Translations under genes and position numbers: made by a program
Shown here: one piece after another, positions 20,118-37,229 of the stretch
Layout: each line of letters opens with the position of its first letter
Numbering within the stretch: the stretch's first letter is position 1
Notes under the pieces: model-generated
Seen by the model: the letters and a program-made list of their open reading frames with translations, nothing else
Told to the model about the DNA's origin: nothing
The model's database searches: none
NCBI GenBank assembly: GCA_948466185.1
Contig: CAOJZM010000001.1
Coordinates: 22,742-86,741, forward strand
Length of the DNA: 64,000 nt
DNA from: an uncultured Christensenella sp.
Lineage (GTDB): Bacteria > Bacillota > Clostridia > Christensenellales > UBA1242
Reading direction: 5' to 3'

Positions 20118-20687
20118 ATGTCTTTATTTAATAAAATAGATAAATTTGCCAAAGAAGAAATTGCAAAAACTGGATTGCCACAAATCTACAATTATGATAT
20201 TGCAAATTCAAAGGCTGAAGAACTCGCAAGGTCACTGGGGGGGGCAAATGTTGATTTAGCAAAATGCGGGACAGCATTAATGGATATAAAACTTGGTGAA
20301 GCCGTGTCAAAAGGCATGCAACCTCAACATGTAAAAATGAGTGCAGAATACGCAAAAAAGGCGTTAATTAAATTAAAAGTTGACGAAAAAACAACCGAAT
20401 TGTTACTCAACTGCGTGCTTGCCCACCATGGACAAGTTCCATATCAGTCTCTTGAAGCTGAAATTGCAGCAAATGCCGATTGTTATAGATTTATATCAGA
20501 AAGAGGGGTGTTTACAACATATAGATTCGCCCTTGAACTTGGTAAAAATCATAATGAAGCACTTGACTTTGTTCAATTTAAACTTGATGAGAAATACAAA
20601 ATCTTATCATTAGAGAAAGCGAAAAAAGACCTCTCTGATTTATATAAACAACTTTCATCCATCATTTCCAAAGCGCATATTGACTAA
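20118..20687 (+). CDS. HD-domain-like protein
   Basis: 189 aa. The helical protein has LAHHGQ and a downstream D (ANADCYRF). Contains a G8 run at 20237-20244. Confidence 0.55.
   Translation: MSLFNKIDKFAKEEIAKTGLPQIYNYDIANSKAEELARSLGGANVDLAKCGTALMDIKLGEAVSKGMQPQHVKMSAEYAKKALIKLKVDEKTTELLLNCVLAHHGQVPYQSLEAEIAANADCYRFISERGVFTTYRFALELGKNHNEALDFVQFKLDEKYKILSLEKAKKDLSDLYKQLSSIISKAHID
20237..20244 (+). repeat. G8 homopolymer inside the CDS
   Basis: ctGGGGGGGGca encodes L-G-G-A. It is the only G/C run of 8 or more that I saw inside a coding region in this window. Confidence 0.9.
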
Positions 20688-24425: not shown

Positions 24426-24738
24426 AATTTACTCCTATTTTAAATTATGAATAATAAAATATATTTGTTAAAATTAATTTTTTCATATAATATTAATTAT
24501 TTTTTTACTTTTTTTTGATTTTTTTATTAATTTTTAATTATTATTGCATTAAATAATATTTTTAAATTTTAATATGTGTTTTTTGCCCTTTATTTCTGGA
24601 TAAAAAAAGTTTTTTATTAATGTATATTTATATATATTTTATTTATTATATATTATATATATTGTGCATTTTATTTTGAATTTTGTCGTTTATGTGATAA
24701 AATCTTTTTATCAAAATAAAAAGGTTTGAGGTGAAATT
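24426..24738. other. 313-bp extremely AT-rich divergent intergenic region
   Basis: I count about 38 G/C in 313 nt (~12% GC). Contains TA-rich runs (tatatatttatatatattttatttattatatattatatatatt). A possible promoter is TTGAAT (24676-24681), 16 nt (TGa), TAAAAT (24698-24703). Confidence 0.8.
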
Positions 24739-27700
24739 ATGTTGAAAATAAAAAATATTTTTAATTCACTTTTGGTATGCTTTGTGATGCTGGGATGTTT
24801 CGGTCTTGGCATTTCTTTATCAAGCCCATTGACTGCAGAAGATAATTTCACTGCAAAAGCAGACTTAACAAATTATGATTCGGTGCAAAACACGCTTCCT
24901 GAATTTGTTAAGCTTGAAAATACCGCACGAAAATCTTTTGAAAATTATGTGTTTCTTACAAACAATAGCAGTGAAATAGATTTGAAAATCGCCGCCGATG
25001 AAAAAATGTTGATTTCTCACAAAACACCTGCTGGAATCATCGATGGTCAAAACTACGCATATATTCCTTCGTCAGACCTCAATATAGAGGATGACCCAAC
25101 CACACCTGATATTGATGAATCAAAAACTGAGTATTATTATTTTTCATTTTCAAACTCACTTTCCCTTTATTATAATCTTACAAACAAGGATATTGAAAAT
25201 GGAACAGAAGGTTTGGATAATATATTAAATGGTGAAAATATCGATTTGTTTGCAACATCAAAAGAAACCGCCTTCCCTATTCAGACATATGATTTCACAC
25301 CTGAAAAATTTGAAATATCATTTAAGCTGAACACCGCAATTTCAGGAGATAAGATAATCAATGGACATACTGTAAGCTTAAAAAAGGAAGGCTGCTACAC
25401 ACTTGCCCTGCCACTTACATATTACCATACCACAAACAATGGTCAAACCTTCTCAACCACTTCTGAAGTAATTTATTATACTTTCATGTTGTTTGACTAC
25501 ACTACTTATTTTGACTCAGCTTCCGAACTTCCAACCTCCAGCATGCAAAACACCACTGTTTCACACTTAACCAACAGTGAGTCACATTCAACATATTATT
25601 TCTACAATTATGATAAAACAAACTTGCCAGCCTTTTCGTACCAACCTAGAAAGGAACAAATATCTGTGCAGTTTACTGACACAGACTCAAACTCTTTCAC
25701 AAGAATAATTGAATTTAATCCATTTACAAACATTATTACCCAAAAGGATGAAAATGGAAACGAAACATCTGATGACAAATTATTTGCGACTTACAACTCA
25801 GCTGACGGGAAAATAACTTTGACATTTAATGACCTTGGTGAATATGACATAAGTTATACATTCTTGTATGTGTCTCAAAACACTGTTTACAAAATTCCAC
25901 TTACAGCAAAAAGACAACGCTTATACAACTATGGTTATCAAGCCTTCTACACCGATTATTCAAAGCTTGACCCTAATACAAACACAACTATTCCTCAGGA
26001 ATTTAAAAATATAAGTGAAGACAAAACAAAATTCCTTAATTCTGCAGATGTTACTTATCTTCTTTCAAACAATCAACATGTTTCCACAACATATGACCTT
26101 GATACACTCAAACAAGATGCAGTCGATGCAATCAACTCCTCTGATGTCAAACCAGTATCAACCAATCAAACACCTGTTAAATTTTCTTCAAATGCAGCCA
26201 AAAAAGGTTCAAAAAAATATACCTTAGATGCCGTGACTGGCGAATTTGACAATGGAAGCATATATGACGGTTCCAACATAAATGATGCTGGCACTTATCT
26301 TATCGTATTAGATTACTCCTACAACAACTACCTTTCAACAAGTGGAACTGCACAAAGCTCCTACCATCATTACCAAATTTTTTATTTCACAGTTGAAAAC
26401 AAAACACCAAGCGTGACAGTCGTTGATGAAAAAGGACAAAACATTCACACAAAGGGATACACAAATAAAAGCGTATTTATCGTTGATGATTCTGCTGCCA
26501 CACTCTTTGACGCTAAAGTAAGAATTACCCTTACCGCCCAAGACTATTTGACCGGAAAGTACGTATTTCCTGAAACCAATATAGAAGACTTTAAAATGGG
26601 TCAGTACGGAATAACCTATTACGATGGTGATATGGCAGTGCCCGGTGATAAGTTTAATATAACTGACGAATCTGGAAAAATTACTACTTTATATCAAACT
26701 GGTGTTTATATTGACGCAAGCAAAGCAAATGCATATCGCAATGCACATTATACAATAAATATATACACCGAAAATTCAAAACTTCCATCAAGCAGAAGTT
26801 TTACAATTGATACAAATGGAATAACAAATCTCAAAGCTCAAAATGTACGCTATTCAACCAGTTCAACTTACAGCATTGTTTCTGATGTGAACGGTGGAAA
26901 AACCAACCAGCCAATCATCTTTTCATGGGACAATAAGATTAGTGGAGCTCAAACATACGGATATTATAAATATTTCGAGCTTAAATCCACCCAGTATTAT
27001 AAAGGCGGAGATGACGATTCTTTATTGCTCTACTCCTTGATTGGTTCACAAGAGCCATTTGATATACTTCCAGTTAATGCTTATTTGGACCTTAATTCAA
27101 GCAGCAATCAATGGACAAACTACGTCAATGCTGTAGATTATAAAACAATTGTTCCTTCAACCTACGTTCGTGATCAAGCGGGTGTTTATGTTTTTGAAGT
27201 ATTTGACGAAGCCGGCAATTCAAATTTTGAACTTTTCTTTATAGACAACACCTCTCCTCTCTTCGTTAAGAAGATAGAGTCACAATCTTCAACCATTCGT
27301 TCCATTCTCTCAAGCAACGACACAATCACAGTATCAGAAGTTTACACAGCCTCTATTGAATGGGCTAACTACAAAGGTATATACCTGCAAGAGCTTTCAG
27401 AAACTGGAAGATTAAATCTGTATAAGTCATTTGTCAATGACAAACTTGACAAGGATGAAAATGGAAGAGTTGAACTGTTAAAGAATAAAATTGATGAATT
27501 TTTAAGTGATAATAATGTCACCACCATTTCTGGTATATCTGGTTCAACCCCTAATCCTGAGATTCTCCCTTCCTATAATGCACAATATTTAAAAGTAAAA
27601 GTTTCAGACAATTTCTACTTAAAAGACTCAGAATCCTCGAAATACACTGAACAAACGGGTAATAGTTACACAATAGAATTCTTTACCGGAACCGGAGAAG

Positions 27701-30700
27701 ACAAAAAAGAAAAAGAAGGCACCTATAAATTTTTATTAAGAGATGAATCCAACACAAATTATAGCGACAACGAATATGGCTTCTTAAATTATCCATCAAG
27801 TTTCCTTACATTAAATGTTACATCAGACGCGTCTCAACTTGAAGTCCTTCTTGAAGGAAATCCTGTAGATAAACAGGGATACACACTAACTGGAAACTTC
27901 TATCAAAAAACTGAAAATGATGTTACGTATTACAGTAAAACGCAAGATGAAGGATTTAACACCGAATCCAAACTCACCTACAAATATGCTTACAATATTC
28001 CTGTAAAGACAGAAAAAGCACTTAGAATCTCATATATTCCTGTGGCTGATAATGGAAGTCGAATTAAAAACATTAAAGTTTTATATTACGGGTATGTAAA
28101 AGCTTCAAAAACCATAACTGCTTATAATGACGGAAAACCTTTTGATGCAACAGCTTGGTATTATACTCTCAGTGACACGGTCACAAGAGAAATTGACATT
28201 TTCAACTATTCACAAACTGAAAGCTACGAAGAAGGCGTAAAGAGGGATTACCTACTCACCTTCTCTGGCTCGGGCATCGCGGAAGCAGGAAAATATGTTA
28301 TTATTCGAACTTACTTTGAAGATTCAACTATCGATAAATATGATTACTATGAAAGAGACTTAACCCTTTATGTCGACAGATATAACGTCATATCTGCACA
28401 AGAGAATGTCACAACTGACATCAATGGCAGCACAACAAGTTCTCTTGAAAGCATAGTTGGTGGAGACATCCTTATTTCAATGTACTCAGGAACTGACCAA
28501 CAAGCATTACAGGTTGCATTCCCAAGTTACAATCCTAACACTCACCTTAATTCAGGATCTTTCTTTACAAAAAATATTTTTGATGAAAACTTAGACACAA
28601 TAATTACCACAAAACCTTCCACAAATAAGCTCCCTCTAAGTGTTTATATTCCACAATATAAATACACTGAAAATTACGCTTATGATTACGCAAATAACTC
28701 ATATTCAGTTATTGAAAACAATACTCTTTCACGCCTTGGAAACTCCATTATTGAGGTGGTGGAGAAACCCGACGAAACCGTCTACAATCTTATTGTTGAA
28801 GGTATAAAAGTTGGAACCTATTACACTCTTGAAGAAGCTGAAGCAGCAAGAGCAAAAACAGATATAGAAGAATATAAACTTAACGCTTTTATCAAATTTA
28901 AATCTACATCTTCAAATAAAACCTATTACTATAAAACAAACGGTACCACCAACGGAGGCTATCTCAATTTCTATAAAGTATCAACCATTGATGAAACTGT
29001 TCCAGCAGATGCAGAGCCTTGTGTATTTAGTGAAACTGGTATTTACAATGTGATAATTTATCAGGGTTATTACGGTGGCAATACTGGTGAAGAGGGGTCT
29101 TTCAGAGATTTCTATCGTTTCGCCTTCGAAATACTTGACCCAGAACCTGAGTTCACCATACTCAATGAAAATGGAATTGAACTAAATTCTGTCAATGGAG
29201 ACTATTATACAAACTCGCAGACTATTGAAGTTCAATGGGAGGACTCAACCAGCGAATATATTGCAAACCTAAACCGAAATGTAAATGCAATTGCAATTGT
29301 AAAAGACGATGGCTCTACAGTATTGCTAAAAGACTCAGATATCAAAACACATGGACTTGTTCACTCTTTCACCTTAAACCTCAATGATATAAATCTTTGG
29401 GCAGAAGGCAGATCATTAAGTATAACAATGCAACTTGAAGGTTATACTGACAATCGCGGCACTTTAACAAAAAGAGTTTTTGTGGATTACTCCGCACCTA
29501 TTCAAAACCTTGCAAGGCTTATGGATAATGTAACTAACTCCTCAGGTGTCTTTGGAAGACTCTATCAAGAAATAAATTCACGTCGACTTCTTGACTTTGA
29601 CAGCAATGAAATAGATACATCTGTGTGGACCAACGCAAATTATTTGACTAATCTTTCCAGGGTTAGTTACTCATACTCTGCTTCAAGTGGAGTTATGAAA
29701 TATTACGCTTACAATGTAGAAAAATCCTTCTTCACAGACTTAAAAAGAAGCATTAATGCTGCAGATCCAACCAGCGTACAAAACATCTATTACAACAGAA
29801 TCACTAACTATGCAGATTATATTCAGGTTGATAAAAGTGGATTCTCGGAAATGAACTATACTAATGTTGCATATATAGAGGAAGACGAAGCTGACCTCAT
29901 TCCAAACGATTACTATGAAATTGTGGAAATTGACACTGCTGGCAACATGGTTGTATATGTTGTTCACATATACGAAAAAGATCATCTTGATGCAGGACAA
30001 CAAACATACGCTTTAACCTATGAAAACGCACTCTATAATGGCGACGAATATATAGCAATCCTTGACTCAAGCCTTGAAAATGAAGGTAACATATATTCAA
30101 ACACAGGATTTAAAATCACTTCTCTCAACTATCTTTCAGATTCTTGGGGCATTTACAGGATAACTGTCAATGGAGTGACAAGTATATATATGAATTCTCC
30201 TTGGCTTACAAGCGATGCAAATGATTCATATATCTATCAAATCCGTTCAGTTAATGGGACCTTAACATACACTCAAATTCCATTATCCGACCTATTTGCA
30301 AACATTACATCATCAAAATATAAACATACATTATCGCTAAGCAACAGATATCAAGGAAATCTTGTTACTGTATATATTGGGATAATGGACGCTTCTCTAA
30401 ACACCACAAAGTATTCAGATGAAGCAACAGCAACTTTAAACATCTTCGTTCCAACAAACGAGCAAGCAAATAGTACAACTGAAGCCTATCTCTACCCTAC
30501 TGAAATAAAAATGTATCAATTCTTAACTGTGGATGAAAGCTGGCATCTAATATCAAATATAATCAATTTGACTGGCAATCCATTAAACTGGTTAAGCGAT
30601 AATGATAATATTAAATACTCATATACAAACGGTATACTTTCAATTACAACCTCACTCGCCGCATTCTCAAGCACAAAACTTAAATATGAAATTAAGGACA

Positions 30701-33102
30701 ACTTTGGGAATATAACCTCCGTTATCCAATTGGTGAATGAGGAAACATGCGATGAAATTATAGGTAACGAAACAATTTATGAAAGTCATGAACCTGATTC
30801 AATAACCTATCTCTCCTCAAGTGACATGACTTATCAATATAATCGCCTGCTTTACCAAGTTAAAATCGAAAAGTATAATGGTTCTACCTTCCACGAATTG
30901 TCTGAAAAAGAGTTGAGGGAAGAAAGCATTGTCAAAGGCAACTATCTTAACACCAACATTAATTACTATCGTTTTCAAACAGGTTATGAGATTAATTATG
31001 ACAAGGTTTATAGGATATCCGTATATGAGATCGAATCAAATCTTGAAACTGATCACCCTGTGCGTATTATCAATGTACGACTTTACTACAAACTCCCATC
31101 TCTACAAACAACGGCCACAAAACCTGATAATAATACAATCAAAATTACCGATAAAAATGCCGACATAATAAGCGAACACGGCACACAACGAAATGTAAGC
31201 GTAAGTAAAGATGGCGTAATTTACACGGCAGATGCAACAACAATAAACACCTATTCAAACACTATAACAGTCAACTTTGATGACGGTCAATTTGGTTTAT
31301 CAAATGACAAATATAGTTATCTACAACAGTACCCTTACAGCATCTATTTCAGTGAAAACGGAAAAGATTGGGTAAATATAAACGGTTTTGCATCAAGTGG
31401 ATACAGAATCAACGGAAGCGGCAATTACAAACTTTTAGTAACCTATGATAATACCGAAATCTTTACAAACCTATGCAAAATATTTGATATCACTATAATT
31501 GACTCATCTTCAGTGTTCTATTACATAACCGTTGACGGAAATTTGATTACTAAATCTGATATAAAATATACCGACCCAAGCGGCCGCCAATATTCAGATA
31601 ACTACATTGTCAGTGTAAATTATAACGATAGAAGAGACCGTGTTGATGTTGTGGGTAATAACGAACTTGGTATTTATCCTATTATCTACAAAAACATTCC
31701 AACAGGAACAAATGTCTATATCGAAGTGTATTCCTACTCCAGTGACATATCCTCAGGATTCTTCACAATTATTTATATAGGCGAAACCAGTTCCATTCTT
31801 ACCCTCCTTAATTACGAGGATAGTTCTGGCTCCCCTATCTCACTACTTGGCTCAACCAATGCTACAATTGTGGCAAGTGAAGTGGAAACCGATTTCAATC
31901 GACTTAGACTTTCTTGGACAGAATACTATGGAATAAAGGAAAACACGATAAATATTGGAGTAGAAAAATTATTTAATAACACCTTTGTTAAAGTAGATGT
32001 AAACATTTATTCTAACGGCACAAACAGATATACTTACCTTACTCGTTCTGGAACGTATAGAATAACATTCTATGATTCATGTACACCTGCAAATATTCAA
32101 TCGTTTGGGAATGGAAACTATATAAATCTTGTTCTTCTCAACTCTGTACCTTTCACAGTAACTTATACAGATCCTGAGACAAATGAAACGCTGGTTACCG
32201 AACCTATTAATAAAAGCGTTTATAATGGAAGTGTTCAATTAAACCTTGTCAACCTTTCCTCCTACTTCCAAACCTCTGGTTATCCAGTAATAAAGGTGTT
32301 TAAGGACGGACTTGAATATAATGGCTTTAACTTATCAAATTATATTTACACCTTTACCGAAACTGGTTATTATAGCGTGAAATTTGCAGCAAAAAGTTCA
32401 AGCGGAATAGATGTGAGACAGGAAGAATTTATCTTCTCTATCATAAATAGAAATGAATCTCGTTATGCCTATGAATTTGCTCCTTATTCAAGCTACTATA
32501 TTGAAAAGGTTGTTAAAGATGGTAAAGATATAACCAAAAACTTGATTGCACTTGCAGGTAGCGACTGTGTAACTATCAACAATCAAAAATATCTTTCAAA
32601 ACTGCTGGTATCTTTCTTCGATGAAAGAACAGGGGCGGGAAGATATGTTATAACAGTAAATACTGGTGAGGCAACATACAATACGATAACTGCTACAAAA
32701 TTTTCATTTGGTTTCTGGATCAATCTTACCTCTCCTCCTATCAACGTTTCTATTGGAGAAGGAGGAACAACCACTGGCAACATAAACATAAAATTCAATG
32801 CTTACAACCTCTATGAATCTGTTGGGGATTGCTACATCAAAATTGCATCAGACAGATATGACATCAATGCAGATACACTTGAATCTATTGGTGGAGAAAA
32901 TGCGGGTATAACCATCACACAATCTGGTACATACTACATTCAAATTTACTCAACAAGCAATAATCTTCTCTATTCATATAAAGTTATCAAGACTGACCCA
33001 CTTAACACCTGGGCAATCATAGCGATTGTAATTGGAGTACTTGCCGTTGGCGTTGTAATCTTCATAACAATCAAACTTAGAAAGAGATTGAAAGTTAAGT
33101 AA
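24739..33102 (+). CDS. Giant (2787 aa) secreted, C-terminally membrane-anchored surface protein, predicted multi-domain beta-rich; no recognisable catalytic motif
   Basis: Single uninterrupted 8364-nt ORF with a GAGGTG SD. Signal peptide MLKIKNIFNSLLVCFVMLGCFGLGISLSSPLTA. C-terminal TM WAIIAIVIGVLAVGVVIFITI plus KLRKRLKVK, no LPXTG. The body is N/T/S/Y-rich with recurring G-x-Y-x-[IV]-x-[IVF] ... D-x-(A)GN strand signatures. Confidence 0.85.
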   Translation: MLKIKNIFNSLLVCFVMLGCFGLGISLSSPLTAEDNFTAKADLTNYDSVQNTLPEFVKLENTARKSFENYVFLTNNSSEIDLKIAADEKMLISHKTPAGIIDGQNYAYIPSSDLNIEDDPTTPDIDESKTEYYYFSFSNSLSLYYNLTNKDIENGTEGLDNILNGENIDLFATSKETAFPIQTYDFTPEKFEISFKLNTAISGDKIINGHTVSLKKEGCYTLALPLTYYHTTNNGQTFSTTSEVIYYTFMLFDYTTYFDSASELPTSSMQNTTVSHLTNSESHSTYYFYNYDKTNLPAFSYQPRKEQISVQFTDTDSNSFTRIIEFNPFTNIITQKDENGNETSDDKLFATYNSADGKITLTFNDLGEYDISYTFLYVSQNTVYKIPLTAKRQRLYNYGYQAFYTDYSKLDPNTNTTIPQEFKNISEDKTKFLNSADVTYLLSNNQHVSTTYDLDTLKQDAVDAINSSDVKPVSTNQTPVKFSSNAAKKGSKKYTLDAVTGEFDNGSIYDGSNINDAGTYLIVLDYSYNNYLSTSGTAQSSYHHYQIFYFTVENKTPSVTVVDEKGQNIHTKGYTNKSVFIVDDSAATLFDAKVRITLTAQDYLTGKYVFPETNIEDFKMGQYGITYYDGDMAVPGDKFNITDESGKITTLYQTGVYIDASKANAYRNAHYTINIYTENSKLPSSRSFTIDTNGITNLKAQNVRYSTSSTYSIVSDVNGGKTNQPIIFSWDNKISGAQTYGYYKYFELKSTQYYKGGDDDSLLLYSLIGSQEPFDILPVNAYLDLNSSSNQWTNYVNAVDYKTIVPSTYVRDQAGVYVFEVFDEAGNSNFELFFIDNTSPLFVKKIESQSSTIRSILSSNDTITVSEVYTASIEWANYKGIYLQELSETGRLNLYKSFVNDKLDKDENGRVELLKNKIDEFLSDNNVTTISGISGSTPNPEILPSYNAQYLKVKVSDNFYLKDSESSKYTEQTGNSYTIEFFTGTGEDKKEKEGTYKFLLRDESNTNYSDNEYGFLNYPSSFLTLNVTSDASQLEVLLEGNPVDKQGYTLTGNFYQKTENDVTYYSKTQDEGFNTESKLTYKYAYNIPVKTEKALRISYIPVADNGSRIKNIKVLYYGYVKASKTITAYNDGKPFDATAWYYTLSDTVTREIDIFNYSQTESYEEGVKRDYLLTFSGSGIAEAGKYVIIRTYFEDSTIDKYDYYERDLTLYVDRYNVISAQENVTTDINGSTTSSLESIVGGDILISMYSGTDQQALQVAFPSYNPNTHLNSGSFFTKNIFDENLDTIITTKPSTNKLPLSVYIPQYKYTENYAYDYANNSYSVIENNTLSRLGNSIIEVVEKPDETVYNLIVEGIKVGTYYTLEEAEAARAKTDIEEYKLNAFIKFKSTSSNKTYYYKTNGTTNGGYLNFYKVSTIDETVPADAEPCVFSETGIYNVIIYQGYYGGNTGEEGSFRDFYRFAFEILDPEPEFTILNENGIELNSVNGDYYTNSQTIEVQWEDSTSEYIANLNRNVNAIAIVKDDGSTVLLKDSDIKTHGLVHSFTLNLNDINLWAEGRSLSITMQLEGYTDNRGTLTKRVFVDYSAPIQNLARLMDNVTNSSGVFGRLYQEINSRRLLDFDSNEIDTSVWTNANYLTNLSRVSYSYSASSGVMKYYAYNVEKSFFTDLKRSINAADPTSVQNIYYNRITNYADYIQVDKSGFSEMNYTNVAYIEEDEADLIPNDYYEIVEIDTAGNMVVYVVHIYEKDHLDAGQQTYALTYENALYNGDEYIAILDSSLENEGNIYSNTGFKITSLNYLSDSWGIYRITVNGVTSIYMNSPWLTSDANDSYIYQIRSVNGTLTYTQIPLSDLFANITSSKYKHTLSLSNRYQGNLVTVYIGIMDASLNTTKYSDEATATLNIFVPTNEQANSTTEAYLYPTEIKMYQFLTVDESWHLISNIINLTGNPLNWLSDNDNIKYSYTNGILSITTSLAAFSSTKLKYEIKDNFGNITSVIQLVNEETCDEIIGNETIYESHEPDSITYLSSSDMTYQYNRLLYQVKIEKYNGSTFHELSEKELREESIVKGNYLNTNINYYRFQTGYEINYDKVYRISVYEIESNLETDHPVRIINVRLYYKLPSLQTTATKPDNNTIKITDKNADIISEHGTQRNVSVSKDGVIYTADATTINTYSNTITVNFDDGQFGLSNDKYSYLQQYPYSIYFSENGKDWVNINGFASSGYRINGSGNYKLLVTYDNTEIFTNLCKIFDITIIDSSSVFYYITVDGNLITKSDIKYTDPSGRQYSDNYIVSVNYNDRRDRVDVVGNNELGIYPIIYKNIPTGTNVYIEVYSYSSDISSGFFTIIYIGETSSILTLLNYEDSSGSPISLLGSTNATIVASEVETDFNRLRLSWTEYYGIKENTINIGVEKLFNNTFVKVDVNIYSNGTNRYTYLTRSGTYRITFYDSCTPANIQSFGNGNYINLVLLNSVPFTVTYTDPETNETLVTEPINKSVYNGSVQLNLVNLSSYFQTSGYPVIKVFKDGLEYNGFNLSNYIYTFTETGYYSVKFAAKSSSGIDVRQEEFIFSIINRNESRYAYEFAPYSSYYIEKVVKDGKDITKNLIALAGSDCVTINNQKYLSKLLVSFFDERTGAGRYVITVNTGEATYNTITATKFSFGFWINLTSPPINVSIGEGGTTTGNINIKFNAYNLYESVGDCYIKIASDRYDINADTLESIGGENAGITITQSGTYYIQIYSTSNNLLYSYKVIKTDPLNTWAIIAIVIGVLAVGVVIFITIKLRKRLKVK

Positions 33103-33107
33103 AACAC

Positions 33108-33139
33108 AAAAAAGCGAAACCTAAGTTTCGCTTTTTTTA
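33108..33139 (+). terminator. Terminator of the giant gene
   Basis: aaaaaa-GCGAAAC-ctaa-GTTTCGC-ttttttt. Confidence 0.8.
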
Positions 33140-33157
33140 TAAATCTAAAATTTTTTC

Positions 33158-33185
33158 TTGACAAATCCCCCCCCCGCTTTATAAT
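33158..33185 (+). promoter_or_regulatory. Near-consensus sigma-A promoter with a poly-C tract in the spacer
   Basis: TTGACA (33158-33163), 16-nt spacer aatCCCCCCCCCgctt, TATAAT (33180-33185). Confidence 0.55.
33167..33175 (+). repeat. C9 homopolymer
   Basis: Nine consecutive C, counted from ...acaaatcccc cccccgcttt.... Confidence 0.95.
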
Positions 33186-33213
33186 GGGCTATACCAAGTT
33201 TATGGAGGGAATC

Positions 33214-34401
33214 ATGATAAAAAATAAAAAGAAAAAATTTTTAAGAGCAATTTCAACTATTTTGGCAACAGCCTCAATCTTTACATTAGCCTCAGGAGTC
33301 GCAGCTGGCTGTTCAAACGAATCCGAAGCAACAGAACAGCCAACCAAAGTCGAAATATTTTACAAGGATAGAATCGAACAGGATTTCGATCAATTGCAAG
33401 ACTTATTAGCACACTTAATTGAGTATGATGACATTTCACAAGACGAAGAATTTATTATTTTGCAAGAAAGCATTGATAATTTCTATAATAACATAGAAAA
33501 GACAGAAAAAAGACCAAACATAATAACTCTTGGCACTAAGGCAAGTGGCAAAGAAGAAATGATTAAACTGGATAAGATCGACGAGACAATTGATACATTA
33601 ATCGAGAAATATGAAGATTATGACTACTGCTTAAAAGAATGTAAATGTTCAATTTTAAACAGTAAAGCAATAATTTATTACAACACTTTACAGCAAGGTT
33701 ATGATAAATATTTAGAAAACAACAAATATAGAAAATGTTTTGAATATTATGCTAGCGCCCCCCTTGGTTACTTGGGACAAACAGAGATAAAAGCCCAAAC
33801 AATTGAATCCGTAAGTCAAAAAGGTGAACAGTTCTCAAAAACAAGCCAAAGCGTAATATATAACGAAAATTTTAATTTATTGGACAGTGTTAGTATTCAA
33901 GATTGTCATGGAGTTTCTTTTTACATGGCAAAGAAATCCGTTGATTCCTCGAAAAATTTCCCCTATTTTCAGAATACTACAACATATGCTGCAACAAATT
34001 ATAAATTATATGAAACTAAAACGGGTTCAAGTTGGGGAAACTGCATACCCGAGCCTCAACAACGGCAAATAGATCAAATTGGTCAACACTTCTTTCGTGC
34101 AACAAAGCAACGTCCAGTTGAAATTTTTTATTCAGAAAGTAAGGGTTTTGTTGCTGAAGTCGAAGGCGTTATGCATGGTGCAGGTCCTAGTATATTTACT
34201 TTTAATATTGATGACAAGGGAATGCTAACAGACCTTGATGAAACGACATTAACAAAAAATGGTGACATTTGGTTTAGGAACTATAAAGTTTTATCTGGAA
34301 TAACAAAAAAAGAATACACTAAAACCTCATTAGAAATTCTTAACAAATATACTGAACTTGCAGAGAAGATTAATAACAAAACTGATGAAACTCAACAATA
34401 A
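33214..34401 (+). CDS. Hypothetical lipoprotein (395 aa)
   Basis: Start moved to ATG 33214 (GGAGGG SD at 33204-33209), because the track start 33184 lies inside the -10 box. MIKNKKKKFLRAISTILATASIFTLASGVAAG|CSNE is a lipobox. Confidence 0.7.
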   Translation: MIKNKKKKFLRAISTILATASIFTLASGVAAGCSNESEATEQPTKVEIFYKDRIEQDFDQLQDLLAHLIEYDDISQDEEFIILQESIDNFYNNIEKTEKRPNIITLGTKASGKEEMIKLDKIDETIDTLIEKYEDYDYCLKECKCSILNSKAIIYYNTLQQGYDKYLENNKYRKCFEYYASAPLGYLGQTEIKAQTIESVSQKGEQFSKTSQSVIYNENFNLLDSVSIQDCHGVSFYMAKKSVDSSKNFPYFQNTTTYAATNYKLYETKTGSSWGNCIPEPQQRQIDQIGQHFFRATKQRPVEIFYSESKGFVAEVEGVMHGAGPSIFTFNIDDKGMLTDLDETTLTKNGDIWFRNYKVLSGITKKEYTKTSLEILNKYTELAEKINNKTDETQQ

Positions 34402-34435
34402 AAAAGATGAACTTAAATGTTCATCTTTTTTTTTA
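34400..34435. terminator. Bidirectional terminator (lipoprotein / rplA)
   Basis: aaaa-AGATGAAC-ttaaat-GTTCATCT-ttttttttt. Confidence 0.8.
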
Positions 34436-36956: not shown

Positions 36957-37229
36957 TTATTTTACGTCTTTTTCAGAAACAGCAACATCAATCAGCATAA
37001 CAACATCATCATTCTTGCAACCCTTTTTAACCTCTTCAAAATCGGTTGGCATATTGAAATCAAAATCATATTTAAGAACATGTATGAAATATTGTTTCAA
37101 AAATTCTTTTGCATACAAAAAGGCCTCTTCGATAATCTTACCGTCAGTGGTAAGTTCAATGTCTGGGAAAAGGACCCTATAAAAATCATCATCTTTATAA
37201 AATATTGCTGGATAAACAAATCTTTGCAT
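36957..37229 (-). CDS. HicB-like (UPF0150) antitoxin-fold protein, no adjacent HicA
   Basis: MQRFVYPAIFYKDDDFYRVLFPDIELTTDGKIIEEAFLYAKEFL matches the usual HicB N-terminal pattern (YPA.F....G.Y.V.FPD......G.t.eEA). Confidence 0.65.
   Translation of the reverse strand: MQRFVYPAIFYKDDDFYRVLFPDIELTTDGKIIEEAFLYAKEFLKQYFIHVLKYDFDFNMPTDFEEVKKGCKNDDVVMLIDVAVSEKDVK

What the first reader, a model, noticed from the sequence alone, without database searches (positions are those of the whole stretch)
33158..33216. C9 tract inside the -35/-10 spacer of a near-consensus promoter: candidate phase-variation switch for a lipoprotein
The sequence reads TTGACA (33158-33163), aatCCCCCCCCCgctt (16 nt), TATAAT (33180-33185). 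It is followed by a GGAGGG SD and ATG 33214 of a 395-aa lipoprotein (lipobox AAG|C). A nine-C run is conspicuous in this AT-rich DNA and sits exactly where length determines promoter strength. Gain or loss of one C moves the spacer between 15, 16, 17 and 18 nt. Homopolymer slippage in promoter spacers is an established on/off or volume-control mechanism for surface antigens in Neisseria, Haemophilus and Mycoplasma, but it is little described in Clostridia-like Firmicutes. The gene lies immediately after the giant surface-protein gene.
Basis: partly seen in the sequence, partly recalled or inferred. Interest (0 to 1): 0.7.

Follow-up and report, generated by a model that had tools for sequence, protein, structure and literature searches.

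The report
Poly-C run inside a promoter spacer
A run of nine C's sits between the two halves of a perfect promoter in front of a strain-specific lipoprotein gene of an uncultured low-GC gut-type bacterium. Its length differs by one base between near-identical strains, so it is a plausible but unproven slippage "dimmer" of a familiar kind.

Summary
TTGACA (33158-63), a 16-nt spacer aatC9gctt (C9 = 33167-75) and TATAAT (33180-85) are followed by GGAGGG and ATG 33214 of a 395-aa lipoprotein ORF. The unit lies between two intrinsic terminators.

The promoter is one of five perfect 12/12 promoters in the window (0.1 expected). It is the only one with a 16-nt, GC-rich spacer.

Four independent assemblies of this species (99.2-99.5% identical) carry C9, C9, C9 and C10. 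The C9/C10 difference is the only indel in 10.4 kb against strain L005, so the stated refuter (an invariant tract) is not met.

Three results limit the claim:
- Only 16- and 17-nt spacers are seen. Both should be active, so there is no OFF allele.
- A/T runs of similar length vary just as often.
- No read-level data were available.

In one strain the same promoter and C9 drive an unrelated 154-aa non-secreted orphan gene. The slot is hypervariable among relatives, none of which has the C tract. The lipoprotein has no homologue in 5.8 billion proteins.

Verdict: a probable slippage-tunable promoter, a new member of a known kind (opc, porA, vlp). Moderate interest.

The parts
24739..33102 (+). 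Giant (2787 aa) secreted protein gene with a C-terminal membrane anchor; upstream neighbour, context only
   Evidence: ORF list. N-terminal signal-like sequence and C-terminal hydrophobic helix plus KLRKRLKVK. No Pfam hit.
33108..33137 (+). Intrinsic terminator of the giant gene (13-bp stem, A/T tails on both sides); isolates the downstream unit from read-through
   Evidence: Terminator scan, inverted repeat I9. Identical in L001, L004 and L005.
33158..33163 (+). -35 hexamer TTGACA
33164..33179 (+). Promoter spacer, 16 nt (aatCCCCCCCCCgctt), 69% G+C against 11-47% in the other four perfect promoters
33167..33175 (+). C9 homopolymer. C9 in L001 and L004; C10 in L005, giving a 17-nt spacer
33180..33185 (+). 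-10 hexamer TATAAT (TATACT at the same distance in L004)
33204..33209 (+). Shine-Dalgarno GGAGGG, 4 nt before the ATG
33214..34401 (+). 395-aa orphan lipoprotein gene (Cys33 after AAG); species- and strain-restricted
   Evidence: Translation. One hit only, 99% identical, in 5.8e9 proteins and in 1.84e9 representatives by full HMMER. No Pfam, PADLOC or PHROG hit. AF2 pLDDT 30.
33186..34399 (+). Segment replaced in strain L004 by a different 5'UTR plus a 154-aa orphan gene; roughly the transcribed region up to the stop codon
   Evidence: BLAST breakpoints at 33183 and 34397, sequences, alignments.
34400..34431 (.). Bidirectional terminator shared with the convergent rplA. It forms the right flank of the swapped segment, and its T tail is T9/T8 polymorphic

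Best explanation
The C9 run is a slippage-prone element in the spacer of the only promoter (sigma-A/sigma-70 type, perfect hexamers) of a small, terminator-bounded, monocistronic accessory-gene slot. Gain or loss of one C during replication changes the -35/-10 distance in 1-bp steps: C9 gives 16 nt and C10 gives 17 nt, the modal spacing of this genome's other perfect promoters. That change retunes promoter strength, so descendants of one cell differ heritably but reversibly in expression of the downstream gene. In the window that gene is a strain-specific orphan lipoprotein.

Shown: the anatomy, the reality of the promoter class, and the between-strain length polymorphism.

Inferred: that slippage is frequent within a population, that C9/C10 (and unseen C8/C11) differ in transcription, and that this is selected for rather than tolerated.
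For: - The sequence is as described.
- Perfect promoters are about 50-fold enriched over shuffles (5 against 0.098), with spacers of 17, 18, 17, 17 and 16 nt.
- The 111-nt intergenic region leaves no room for another promoter, because the upstream terminator occupies 33108-33137.
- A C/G run of 9 or more is found in only 4.8% of shuffles, and it is the only GC-rich spacer among the perfect promoters.
- Four assemblies of the same species at 99.2-99.5% identity carry C9, C9, C9 and C10. The tract is the sole indel in 10.4 kb against L005.
- Both gene alleles downstream keep a -10 hexamer exactly 4 nt after the tract, which suggests the promoter is used.
- The window holds a second long G/C run, G8, early in a coding sequence.
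- Precedents from the literature: the opc poly-C promoter, where C11 versus C12 changes expression (PMC3447861, citing Sarkari 1994); the vlp poly-A promoter and the vmm TA repeat in a promoter spacer (PMC10502178).
Against: - Only lengths giving 16- and 17-nt spacers are seen. No OFF-range allele was found, and only four sequences are available.
- Intergenic A/T runs vary as often in the same comparisons, so hypermutability specific to this site is not shown.
- Short-read assemblies can miscount homopolymers.
- Sister species lack any C/G run of 6 or more in 50 kb of syntenic DNA and have ordinary spacers at the corresponding promoters, so the tract is young.
- In L004 the promoter drives a non-secreted protein.
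- The function of either gene is unknown.
- No information is available on the TSS, read heteroplasmy or mismatch-repair status.
Confidence: 0.5

Rival explanations
1. Incidental homopolymer. The promoter is real and constitutive. The C run is a recent, neutral slippage expansion in a tolerant spacer, and C9/C10 is ordinary indel polymorphism without regulatory use.
For: - All five indels between strains are in intergenic homopolymers, and two of the three runs of 9 nt or more vary.
- Both observed spacers (16 and 17 nt) are in the active range.
- The tract is absent from sister species.
- The window-wide excess of long C/G runs is only modest (2% of shuffles).
Against: - Any 1-bp change in the spacer of a sigma-70-type promoter is expected to change its strength (established knowledge), so 'no effect' is unlikely in the strict sense.
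- A 9-10-nt run of the minority base inside one of only five perfect promoters is an improbable coincidence.
Confidence: 0.3
2. Recombination landmark. The tract with the promoter on the left and the A-run/terminator on the right are the conserved flanks of an exchangeable gene cassette. The poly-C is a by-product of cassette exchange or a hotspot for it, for example a fork-stalling or template-switch site.
For: - Between window and L004, homology is near-perfect up to and through the C9 (two mismatches in the 4 nt between it and the -10), is lost a few bases after the -10, and resumes exactly at the stop codon/terminator.
- Both occupants are orphans.
- The slot holds different genes, or none, in relatives.
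- Contig L006 ends exactly at the right junction.
Against: - The homology break is after the -10 (7 of 10 bases after the C run still match), not at the tract.
- No recombinase, att-like repeat or mobile-element gene is nearby.
- Only one exchange event is seen.
- Ordinary homologous recombination in conserved flanks explains it.
Confidence: 0.12
3. Invertible promoter. The perfect 13-nt inverted repeat (33147-59 / 33229-41) brackets promoter, SD and ATG and could mediate site-specific inversion.
For: It is the only inverted repeat with arms of 13 nt or more and a gap of 20-300 nt in the window, and it brackets exactly this promoter.
Against: - Shuffles give 0.95 such repeats per window.
- The arms are low-complexity A/T (KKKKF codons against a T-rich upstream element).
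- The 69 nt between the arms is far below the roughly 150 bp or more of known invertons (own knowledge).
- All three lipoprotein contigs have the same orientation.
- No recombinase gene lies within about 10 kb.
Confidence: 0.03
4. Sequencing or assembly artefact at a homopolymer.
For: Homopolymer lengths are error-prone, and the C10 rests on one Logan contig.
Against: The tract is present in four independent assemblies from different samples, three of them agreeing on C9.
Confidence: 0.03

Closest known systems
Neisseria meningitidis opc (poly-C) and porA (poly-G) promoters
   Same: A G/C homopolymer lies in the core promoter between or next to the -35 and -10. One-base length steps give graded expression of a surface protein (opc: C11 versus C12; PMC3447861, citing Sarkari et al. 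1994). The details for porA are from my own knowledge.
   Different: Those are Gram-negative pathogens with dozens of such loci, and their switching is measured experimentally. Here one locus is seen in an uncultured low-GC bacterium, the hexamers are perfect consensus (so the OFF range may need a shift of 2 nt or more), and no expression data exist.
Mycoplasma hyorhinis vlp (poly-A) and M. mycoides vmm (TA repeat) lipoprotein promoters
   Same: A simple repeat in the promoter or promoter spacer controls transcription of a lipoprotein gene in a low-GC, Firmicute-related lineage (PMC10502178, citing Citti & Wise 1995 and Persson et al. 2002).
   Different: The vlp genes form a paralogous family, each with its own tract. 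Here there is a single orphan gene and no paralogues. The run is of the minority base (C), and the organism uses the standard code (TGA is a stop).
Campylobacter / Helicobacter poly-G/C contingency loci
   Same: An AT-rich genome carries long G/C runs as the mutable element. The window also holds a second run (G8) early in a coding sequence.
   Different: Those genomes carry about 20-30 or more tracts and lack MutSLH repair. Here the genome-wide count and the repair status are unknown.
Invertible promoters of Clostridioides difficile / Bacteroides
   Same: They give heritable, reversible control of surface or accessory genes in gut anaerobes (PMC11868660). An inverted repeat flanks this promoter too.
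   Different: The mechanism differs (recombinase-mediated inversion). Here the repeat is at chance level, the segment is too short, and no recombinase is present.

Membership tests
SSR (homopolymer) promoter-spacer phase/volume variation (contingency locus) | Hypermutable-length simple repeat (G/C run of about 8 nt or more) | tested here: met
   C9 at 33167-33175.
SSR (homopolymer) promoter-spacer phase/volume variation (contingency locus) | The repeat lies between the -35 and -10 of the promoter that drives the gene | tested here: met
   Met in silico only. A 12/12 consensus promoter, the only candidate in a 111-nt terminator-bounded intergenic region. The TSS is not mapped.
SSR (homopolymer) promoter-spacer phase/volume variation (contingency locus) | Repeat length differs between closely related strains | tested here: met
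   C9 (window, L001, L004) against C10 (L005) at 99.2-99.5% identity. Only four sequences, and not more variable than A/T runs.
SSR (homopolymer) promoter-spacer phase/volume variation (contingency locus) | High-frequency, reversible length change within a clonal population | not testable with these tools
   No access to reads or cultures.
SSR (homopolymer) promoter-spacer phase/volume variation (contingency locus) | Length change alters expression (ON/OFF or graded) | not testable with these tools
   The observed alleles give 16- and 17-nt spacers, both expected to be active. No OFF-range allele was seen.
SSR (homopolymer) promoter-spacer phase/volume variation (contingency locus) | The controlled gene encodes a surface or host/phage-interaction product | tested here: inconclusive
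   A lipoprotein in the window, L001 and L005, but a 154-aa protein without a signal peptide in L004. Both are orphans.
SSR (homopolymer) promoter-spacer phase/volume variation (contingency locus) | Several such tracts per genome | tested here: inconclusive
   Two C/G runs of 8 nt or more in 64 kb (C9 here, G8 in the HD-domain ORF), seen in 2% of shuffles. The rest of the genome was not available.
Invertible promoter (inverton) | Inverted repeats flank a promoter-bearing segment of roughly 150-800 bp | tested here: not met
   A 13-nt perfect repeat, but only 69 nt lie between the arms, and the repeat is expected by chance 0.95 times per window.
Invertible promoter (inverton) | Both orientations occur, and a site-specific recombinase is nearby | tested here: not met
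   Three of three contigs have the same orientation. Neighbouring genes are ribosomal, housekeeping or glycosyltransferase genes.
Bacterial lipoprotein (Lgt/LspA substrate) | Positively charged n-region, hydrophobic h-region, and a lipobox ending in Cys within the first ~35 residues | tested here: met
   MIKNKKKK / FLRAISTILATASIFTLASGV / AAG-C33. Checked by eye against the PROSITE PS51257-type rule. lgt and lspA were not looked for.

The most novel reading that the evidence does not exclude
The conserved poly-C promoter and the shared terminator form a fixed 'expression slot'. Unrelated, promoter-less orphan genes are exchanged into it between strains, from just after the -10 to the stop codon. 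The slot's output is tuned by C-tract slippage, so this would be a combined cassette-exchange and slippage system for strain-specific accessory proteins in an uncultured gut Firmicute.
Probability: 0.12. Interest if true: 0.65.

Novelty: new member of a known kind. Interest (0 to 1): 0.4.

Why it matters
Homopolymer slippage in promoter spacers is textbook for Neisseria, Haemophilus and mycoplasmas. Reported heritable switches in gut anaerobes are mostly DNA inversions (PMC11868660). A confirmed slippage-tuned promoter in an uncultured low-GC gut or rumen bacterium would extend the mechanism to such commensals. It would also show that such loci can be spotted from metagenome assemblies.

The practical value is limited. 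Both controlled genes are orphans of unknown function, and the organism is uncultured.

The hypervariable slot may be the more useful lead for studying strain-level variation. It holds a lipoprotein, a 154-aa orphan, arsR-ATPase-DUF4116, a KwaA-like gene, or nothing.

Tried and rejected
- Collection scans with the pattern TTCTTGACAAAT-N5-16-GCTTTATAATGG in metagenome contigs and genome contigs returned only unrelated consensus promoters (L002, L003).
- Exact look-ups of the window's lipoprotein, NusG, the GT2-TPR protein and the HD protein found nothing on record.
- Look-up of the NT5C-like neighbour gave a contig that stops about 160 nt short of the G8 run.
- Homology searches for the lipoprotein (word-indexed, and exhaustive HMMER) found only the same-species copy.
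- Single-sequence AlphaFold gave pLDDT 30, which is unusable, so no fold search was run.
- The 154-aa alternative gene is also an orphan.
- Pfam, PADLOC and PHROGs gave nothing for either cassette gene.
- A search with the C-terminal 300 aa of the giant protein, meant to recover more same-species contigs, returned only relatives of 56% identity or less. Two of them showed the slot in distant relatives.
- The three slot occupants (395 aa, 154 aa, DUF4116 344 aa) share no similarity.
- The taxon could not be named.
- The inverton idea was tested and set aside.
- TRF found no other notable simple repeats.

Full report
**1. The observation**

TTGACA is at 33158-33163. The 16-nt spacer aatCCCCCCCCCgctt follows, with C9 at 33167-33175. 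TATAAT is at 33180-33185, GGAGGG at 33204-33209 and ATG at 33214. The open frame runs to the stop at 34399-34401 and encodes 395 aa. The longer ORF from ATG 33184 (405 aa) starts inside the -10 hexamer and has no ribosome-binding site, so 33214 is the credible start.

The N-terminus is MIKNKKKK-FLRAISTILATASIFTLASGV-AAG-C33. It has the charged n-region, hydrophobic core and lipobox of a bacterial lipoprotein.

**2. Is it more than chance?**

- The generic promoter scan is at chance level (16 sites against 17.7 expected). Perfect 12/12 sites are not: 5 in the window against 0.098 in 500 dinucleotide shuffles. This organism therefore uses near-consensus sigma-A-type promoters.
- The five spacers are 17, 18, 17, 17 and, here, 16 nt. 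This one has 69% G+C against 11-47% for the others.
- Short C/G runs follow expectation. A run of 9 or more occurs in only 4.8% of shuffles, and two runs of 8 or more in 2%.
- The window has exactly two long runs: this C9, and a G8 at 20237-44 inside an HD-domain ORF.
- The intergenic region is 111 nt. Thirty of those are the 13-bp-stem terminator of the upstream giant gene (33108-33137), so no other promoter can serve the gene.
- A second terminator (34400-34431) ends the unit and is shared with the convergent rplA.

**3. Related sequences**

DNA-pattern scans of the metagenome and genome collections gave only unrelated promoters. Exact-protein look-ups of the adjacent L1, L11 and L33 genes did recover independent assemblies of the same species:

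| Locus | Sample | Identity to window |
|---|---|---|
| L001 | SRR20820550 | 99.3% |
| L004 | SRR29841525 | 99.2-99.4% |
| L005 | SRR35271099 | 99.5% |

Tract lengths are C9 in the window and L001, C9 in L004 and C10 in L005. The extra C in L005 is the only indel in 10.4 kb, against 51 substitutions.

The other four indels among these strains also lie in intergenic homopolymers. They are T9/T8 in the shared terminator tail (seen in both L001 and L004), T6/T7 at 24579, and A6/A7 at 34400. Two of the three intergenic runs of 9 nt or more in the compared region vary. The C run is slippery, but on this evidence not more so than A/T runs.

Both observed alleles give spacers of 16 and 17 nt. With perfect hexamers, both should be active.

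**4. The unexpected part: the gene behind the promoter is not fixed**

In L004, the giant gene's 3' end, its terminator, the -35 and the C9 are identical to the window. After the tract the sequence reads gagtTATACT, then a different leader with GGAGG, then the ATG of a 154-aa protein. That protein has no signal peptide and no similarity to the lipoprotein.

Homology is lost just after the -10; seven of the ten bases after the tract still match. It resumes exactly at the stop codon/terminator. Both alleles keep a -10 hexamer 4 nt after the tract, so both have a 16-nt spacer.

Both proteins are orphans:
- The lipoprotein has one hit (99% identical, same species) in 5.8 billion proteins. It has the same single hit in an exhaustive HMMER scan of 1.84 billion representatives.
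- It has no Pfam, PADLOC or PHROG hit and cannot be modelled (pLDDT 30).
- The 154-aa protein occurs on one contig only.

**5. Relatives**

The slot between the giant gene and rplA varies among relatives:
- Sister species with an identical L33 and the same synteny (L010-L012) carry arsR, a P-type ATPase and a DUF4116 gene there. Their promoters are ordinary, one with an ArsR-type palindrome in the spacer. Their 50 kb of syntenic DNA has no C/G run of 6 or more.
- A more distant relative has a KwaA-like gene in the slot (L017; PADLOC E = 4e-19).
- Another relative has nothing there (L018).

The slot is thus a hypervariable islet, and the poly-C promoter is a young, species-specific feature.

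**6. The organism**

It uses the standard genetic code (TGA is used as a stop) and has 35% G+C. It has an FeFe hydrogenase, rubrerythrin, glucosyl-diacylglycerol synthases and the rpmG-secE-nusG-rplK-rplA cluster. This describes an anaerobic, low-GC, Firmicute-like bacterium.

One relative's contig comes from a ruminant gut MAG set (the record name; the source attribution is my own knowledge). No source names the taxon, so 'Clostridia-like' is unverified.

**7. Mechanism**

The best-supported reading is a slippage-tunable promoter. Replication slippage changes the C run by one base. That changes the -35/-10 spacing and hence promoter strength, heritably and reversibly. By analogy with porA and opc, C10 (17 nt) would be maximal, C9 intermediate, and C8 or below and C12 or above weak.
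- The opc behaviour (C11 versus C12 changing expression) is documented in PMC3447861, citing Sarkari 1994.
- The porA detail is from my own knowledge.
- The lipoprotein precedents vlp (poly-A) and vmm (TA repeat in the spacer) are described in PMC10502178.

The anatomy and the between-strain polymorphism are shown. Frequency, reversibility, the expression effect and adaptive value are inferred. I put this reading at about 0.5.

The main rival is an incidental neutral run in a constitutive promoter (about 0.3). It is favoured by the equal variability of A/T runs and by the absence of any OFF-range allele. A role as a landmark or hotspot of cassette exchange (about 0.12) is suggested by the swap but is not needed to explain it.

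**8. The inverted repeat**

A perfect 13-nt inverted repeat brackets the promoter, SD and ATG (33147-59 / 33229-41). I set it aside as an inverton for these reasons:
- Shuffles give 0.95 such repeats per window.
- The arms are low-complexity A/T.
- The 69-nt interval is too short.
- All three contigs have the same orientation.
- No recombinase gene is nearby.

**9. Comparison and verdict**

The locus works like the promoter-spacer SSR loci of Neisseria and the mycoplasmas, and it meets the sequence-level criteria. The kinetic and expression criteria are untested. It is a new member of a known kind.

Interest is moderate. The taxon and habitat are unusual for this mechanism (PMC11868660 lists only inversion-type switches for Clostridioides). 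The cassette swap under a fixed promoter is a useful lead. However, the evidence for true phase variation is thin, and the controlled genes are orphans.

Noticed in passing
window 20237-20244: A G8 run lies inside the HD-domain ORF 20118-20687 (about codons 40-43, L-G-G-A) and is in frame here. A +/-1 change would truncate the protein. It is the only other C/G run of 7 nt or more in the window and a possible second contingency-type site.
   Followed up: partly
window 33147-33159 and 33229-33241: A perfect 13-nt inverted repeat (AAAATTTTTTCTT / AAGAAAAAATTTT) brackets the whole promoter, SD and start codon, with 69 nt between the arms. Its count is at chance level (0.95 per shuffled window). 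The right arm is absent from the L004 allele.
   Followed up: yes
window 33186-34399; L004 7650-8136: The transcribed unit behind the promoter is replaced in one strain by an unrelated 154-aa orphan gene. Junctions fall just after the -10 and at the stop codon/terminator.
   Followed up: yes
L010 12435-16100, L011, L012, L017 1522-2216, L018 5076-5283: The slot between the giant gene and rplA is hypervariable in relatives. It holds arsR, a P-type ATPase and DUF4116; or a KwaA-like (Kiwa defence component) gene alone; or nothing.
   Followed up: partly
window 34426-34434: The T9 tail of the terminator shared by the lipoprotein gene and rplA is T8 in L001 and L004. An A6/A7 difference sits at 34400-05 on the other side of the stem.
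   Followed up: yes
L006 (SRR35028445), end at window 34398: A short contig from another sample ends exactly at the right cassette junction. This would fit an assembly-graph branch, meaning both cassettes are present in that sample, or simply low coverage.
   Followed up: no
window 32524-32574: A cluster of 7 substitutions within 50 nt of the giant gene's 3' part is shared by L001 and L004 but not L005. This looks like a small recombination tract.
   Followed up: no
window 36957-37229 (-): A 90-aa ORF with a weak HicB-like antitoxin match (E = 1e-4, below the Pfam cutoff) lies between argS and rpmG. It is conserved in the relatives.
   Followed up: no
window 24480-24680: The region upstream of the giant gene is packed with T7-T8 runs and an imperfect (TA)n stretch. 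One T6/T7 indel against L004 lies at 24579.
   Followed up: partly
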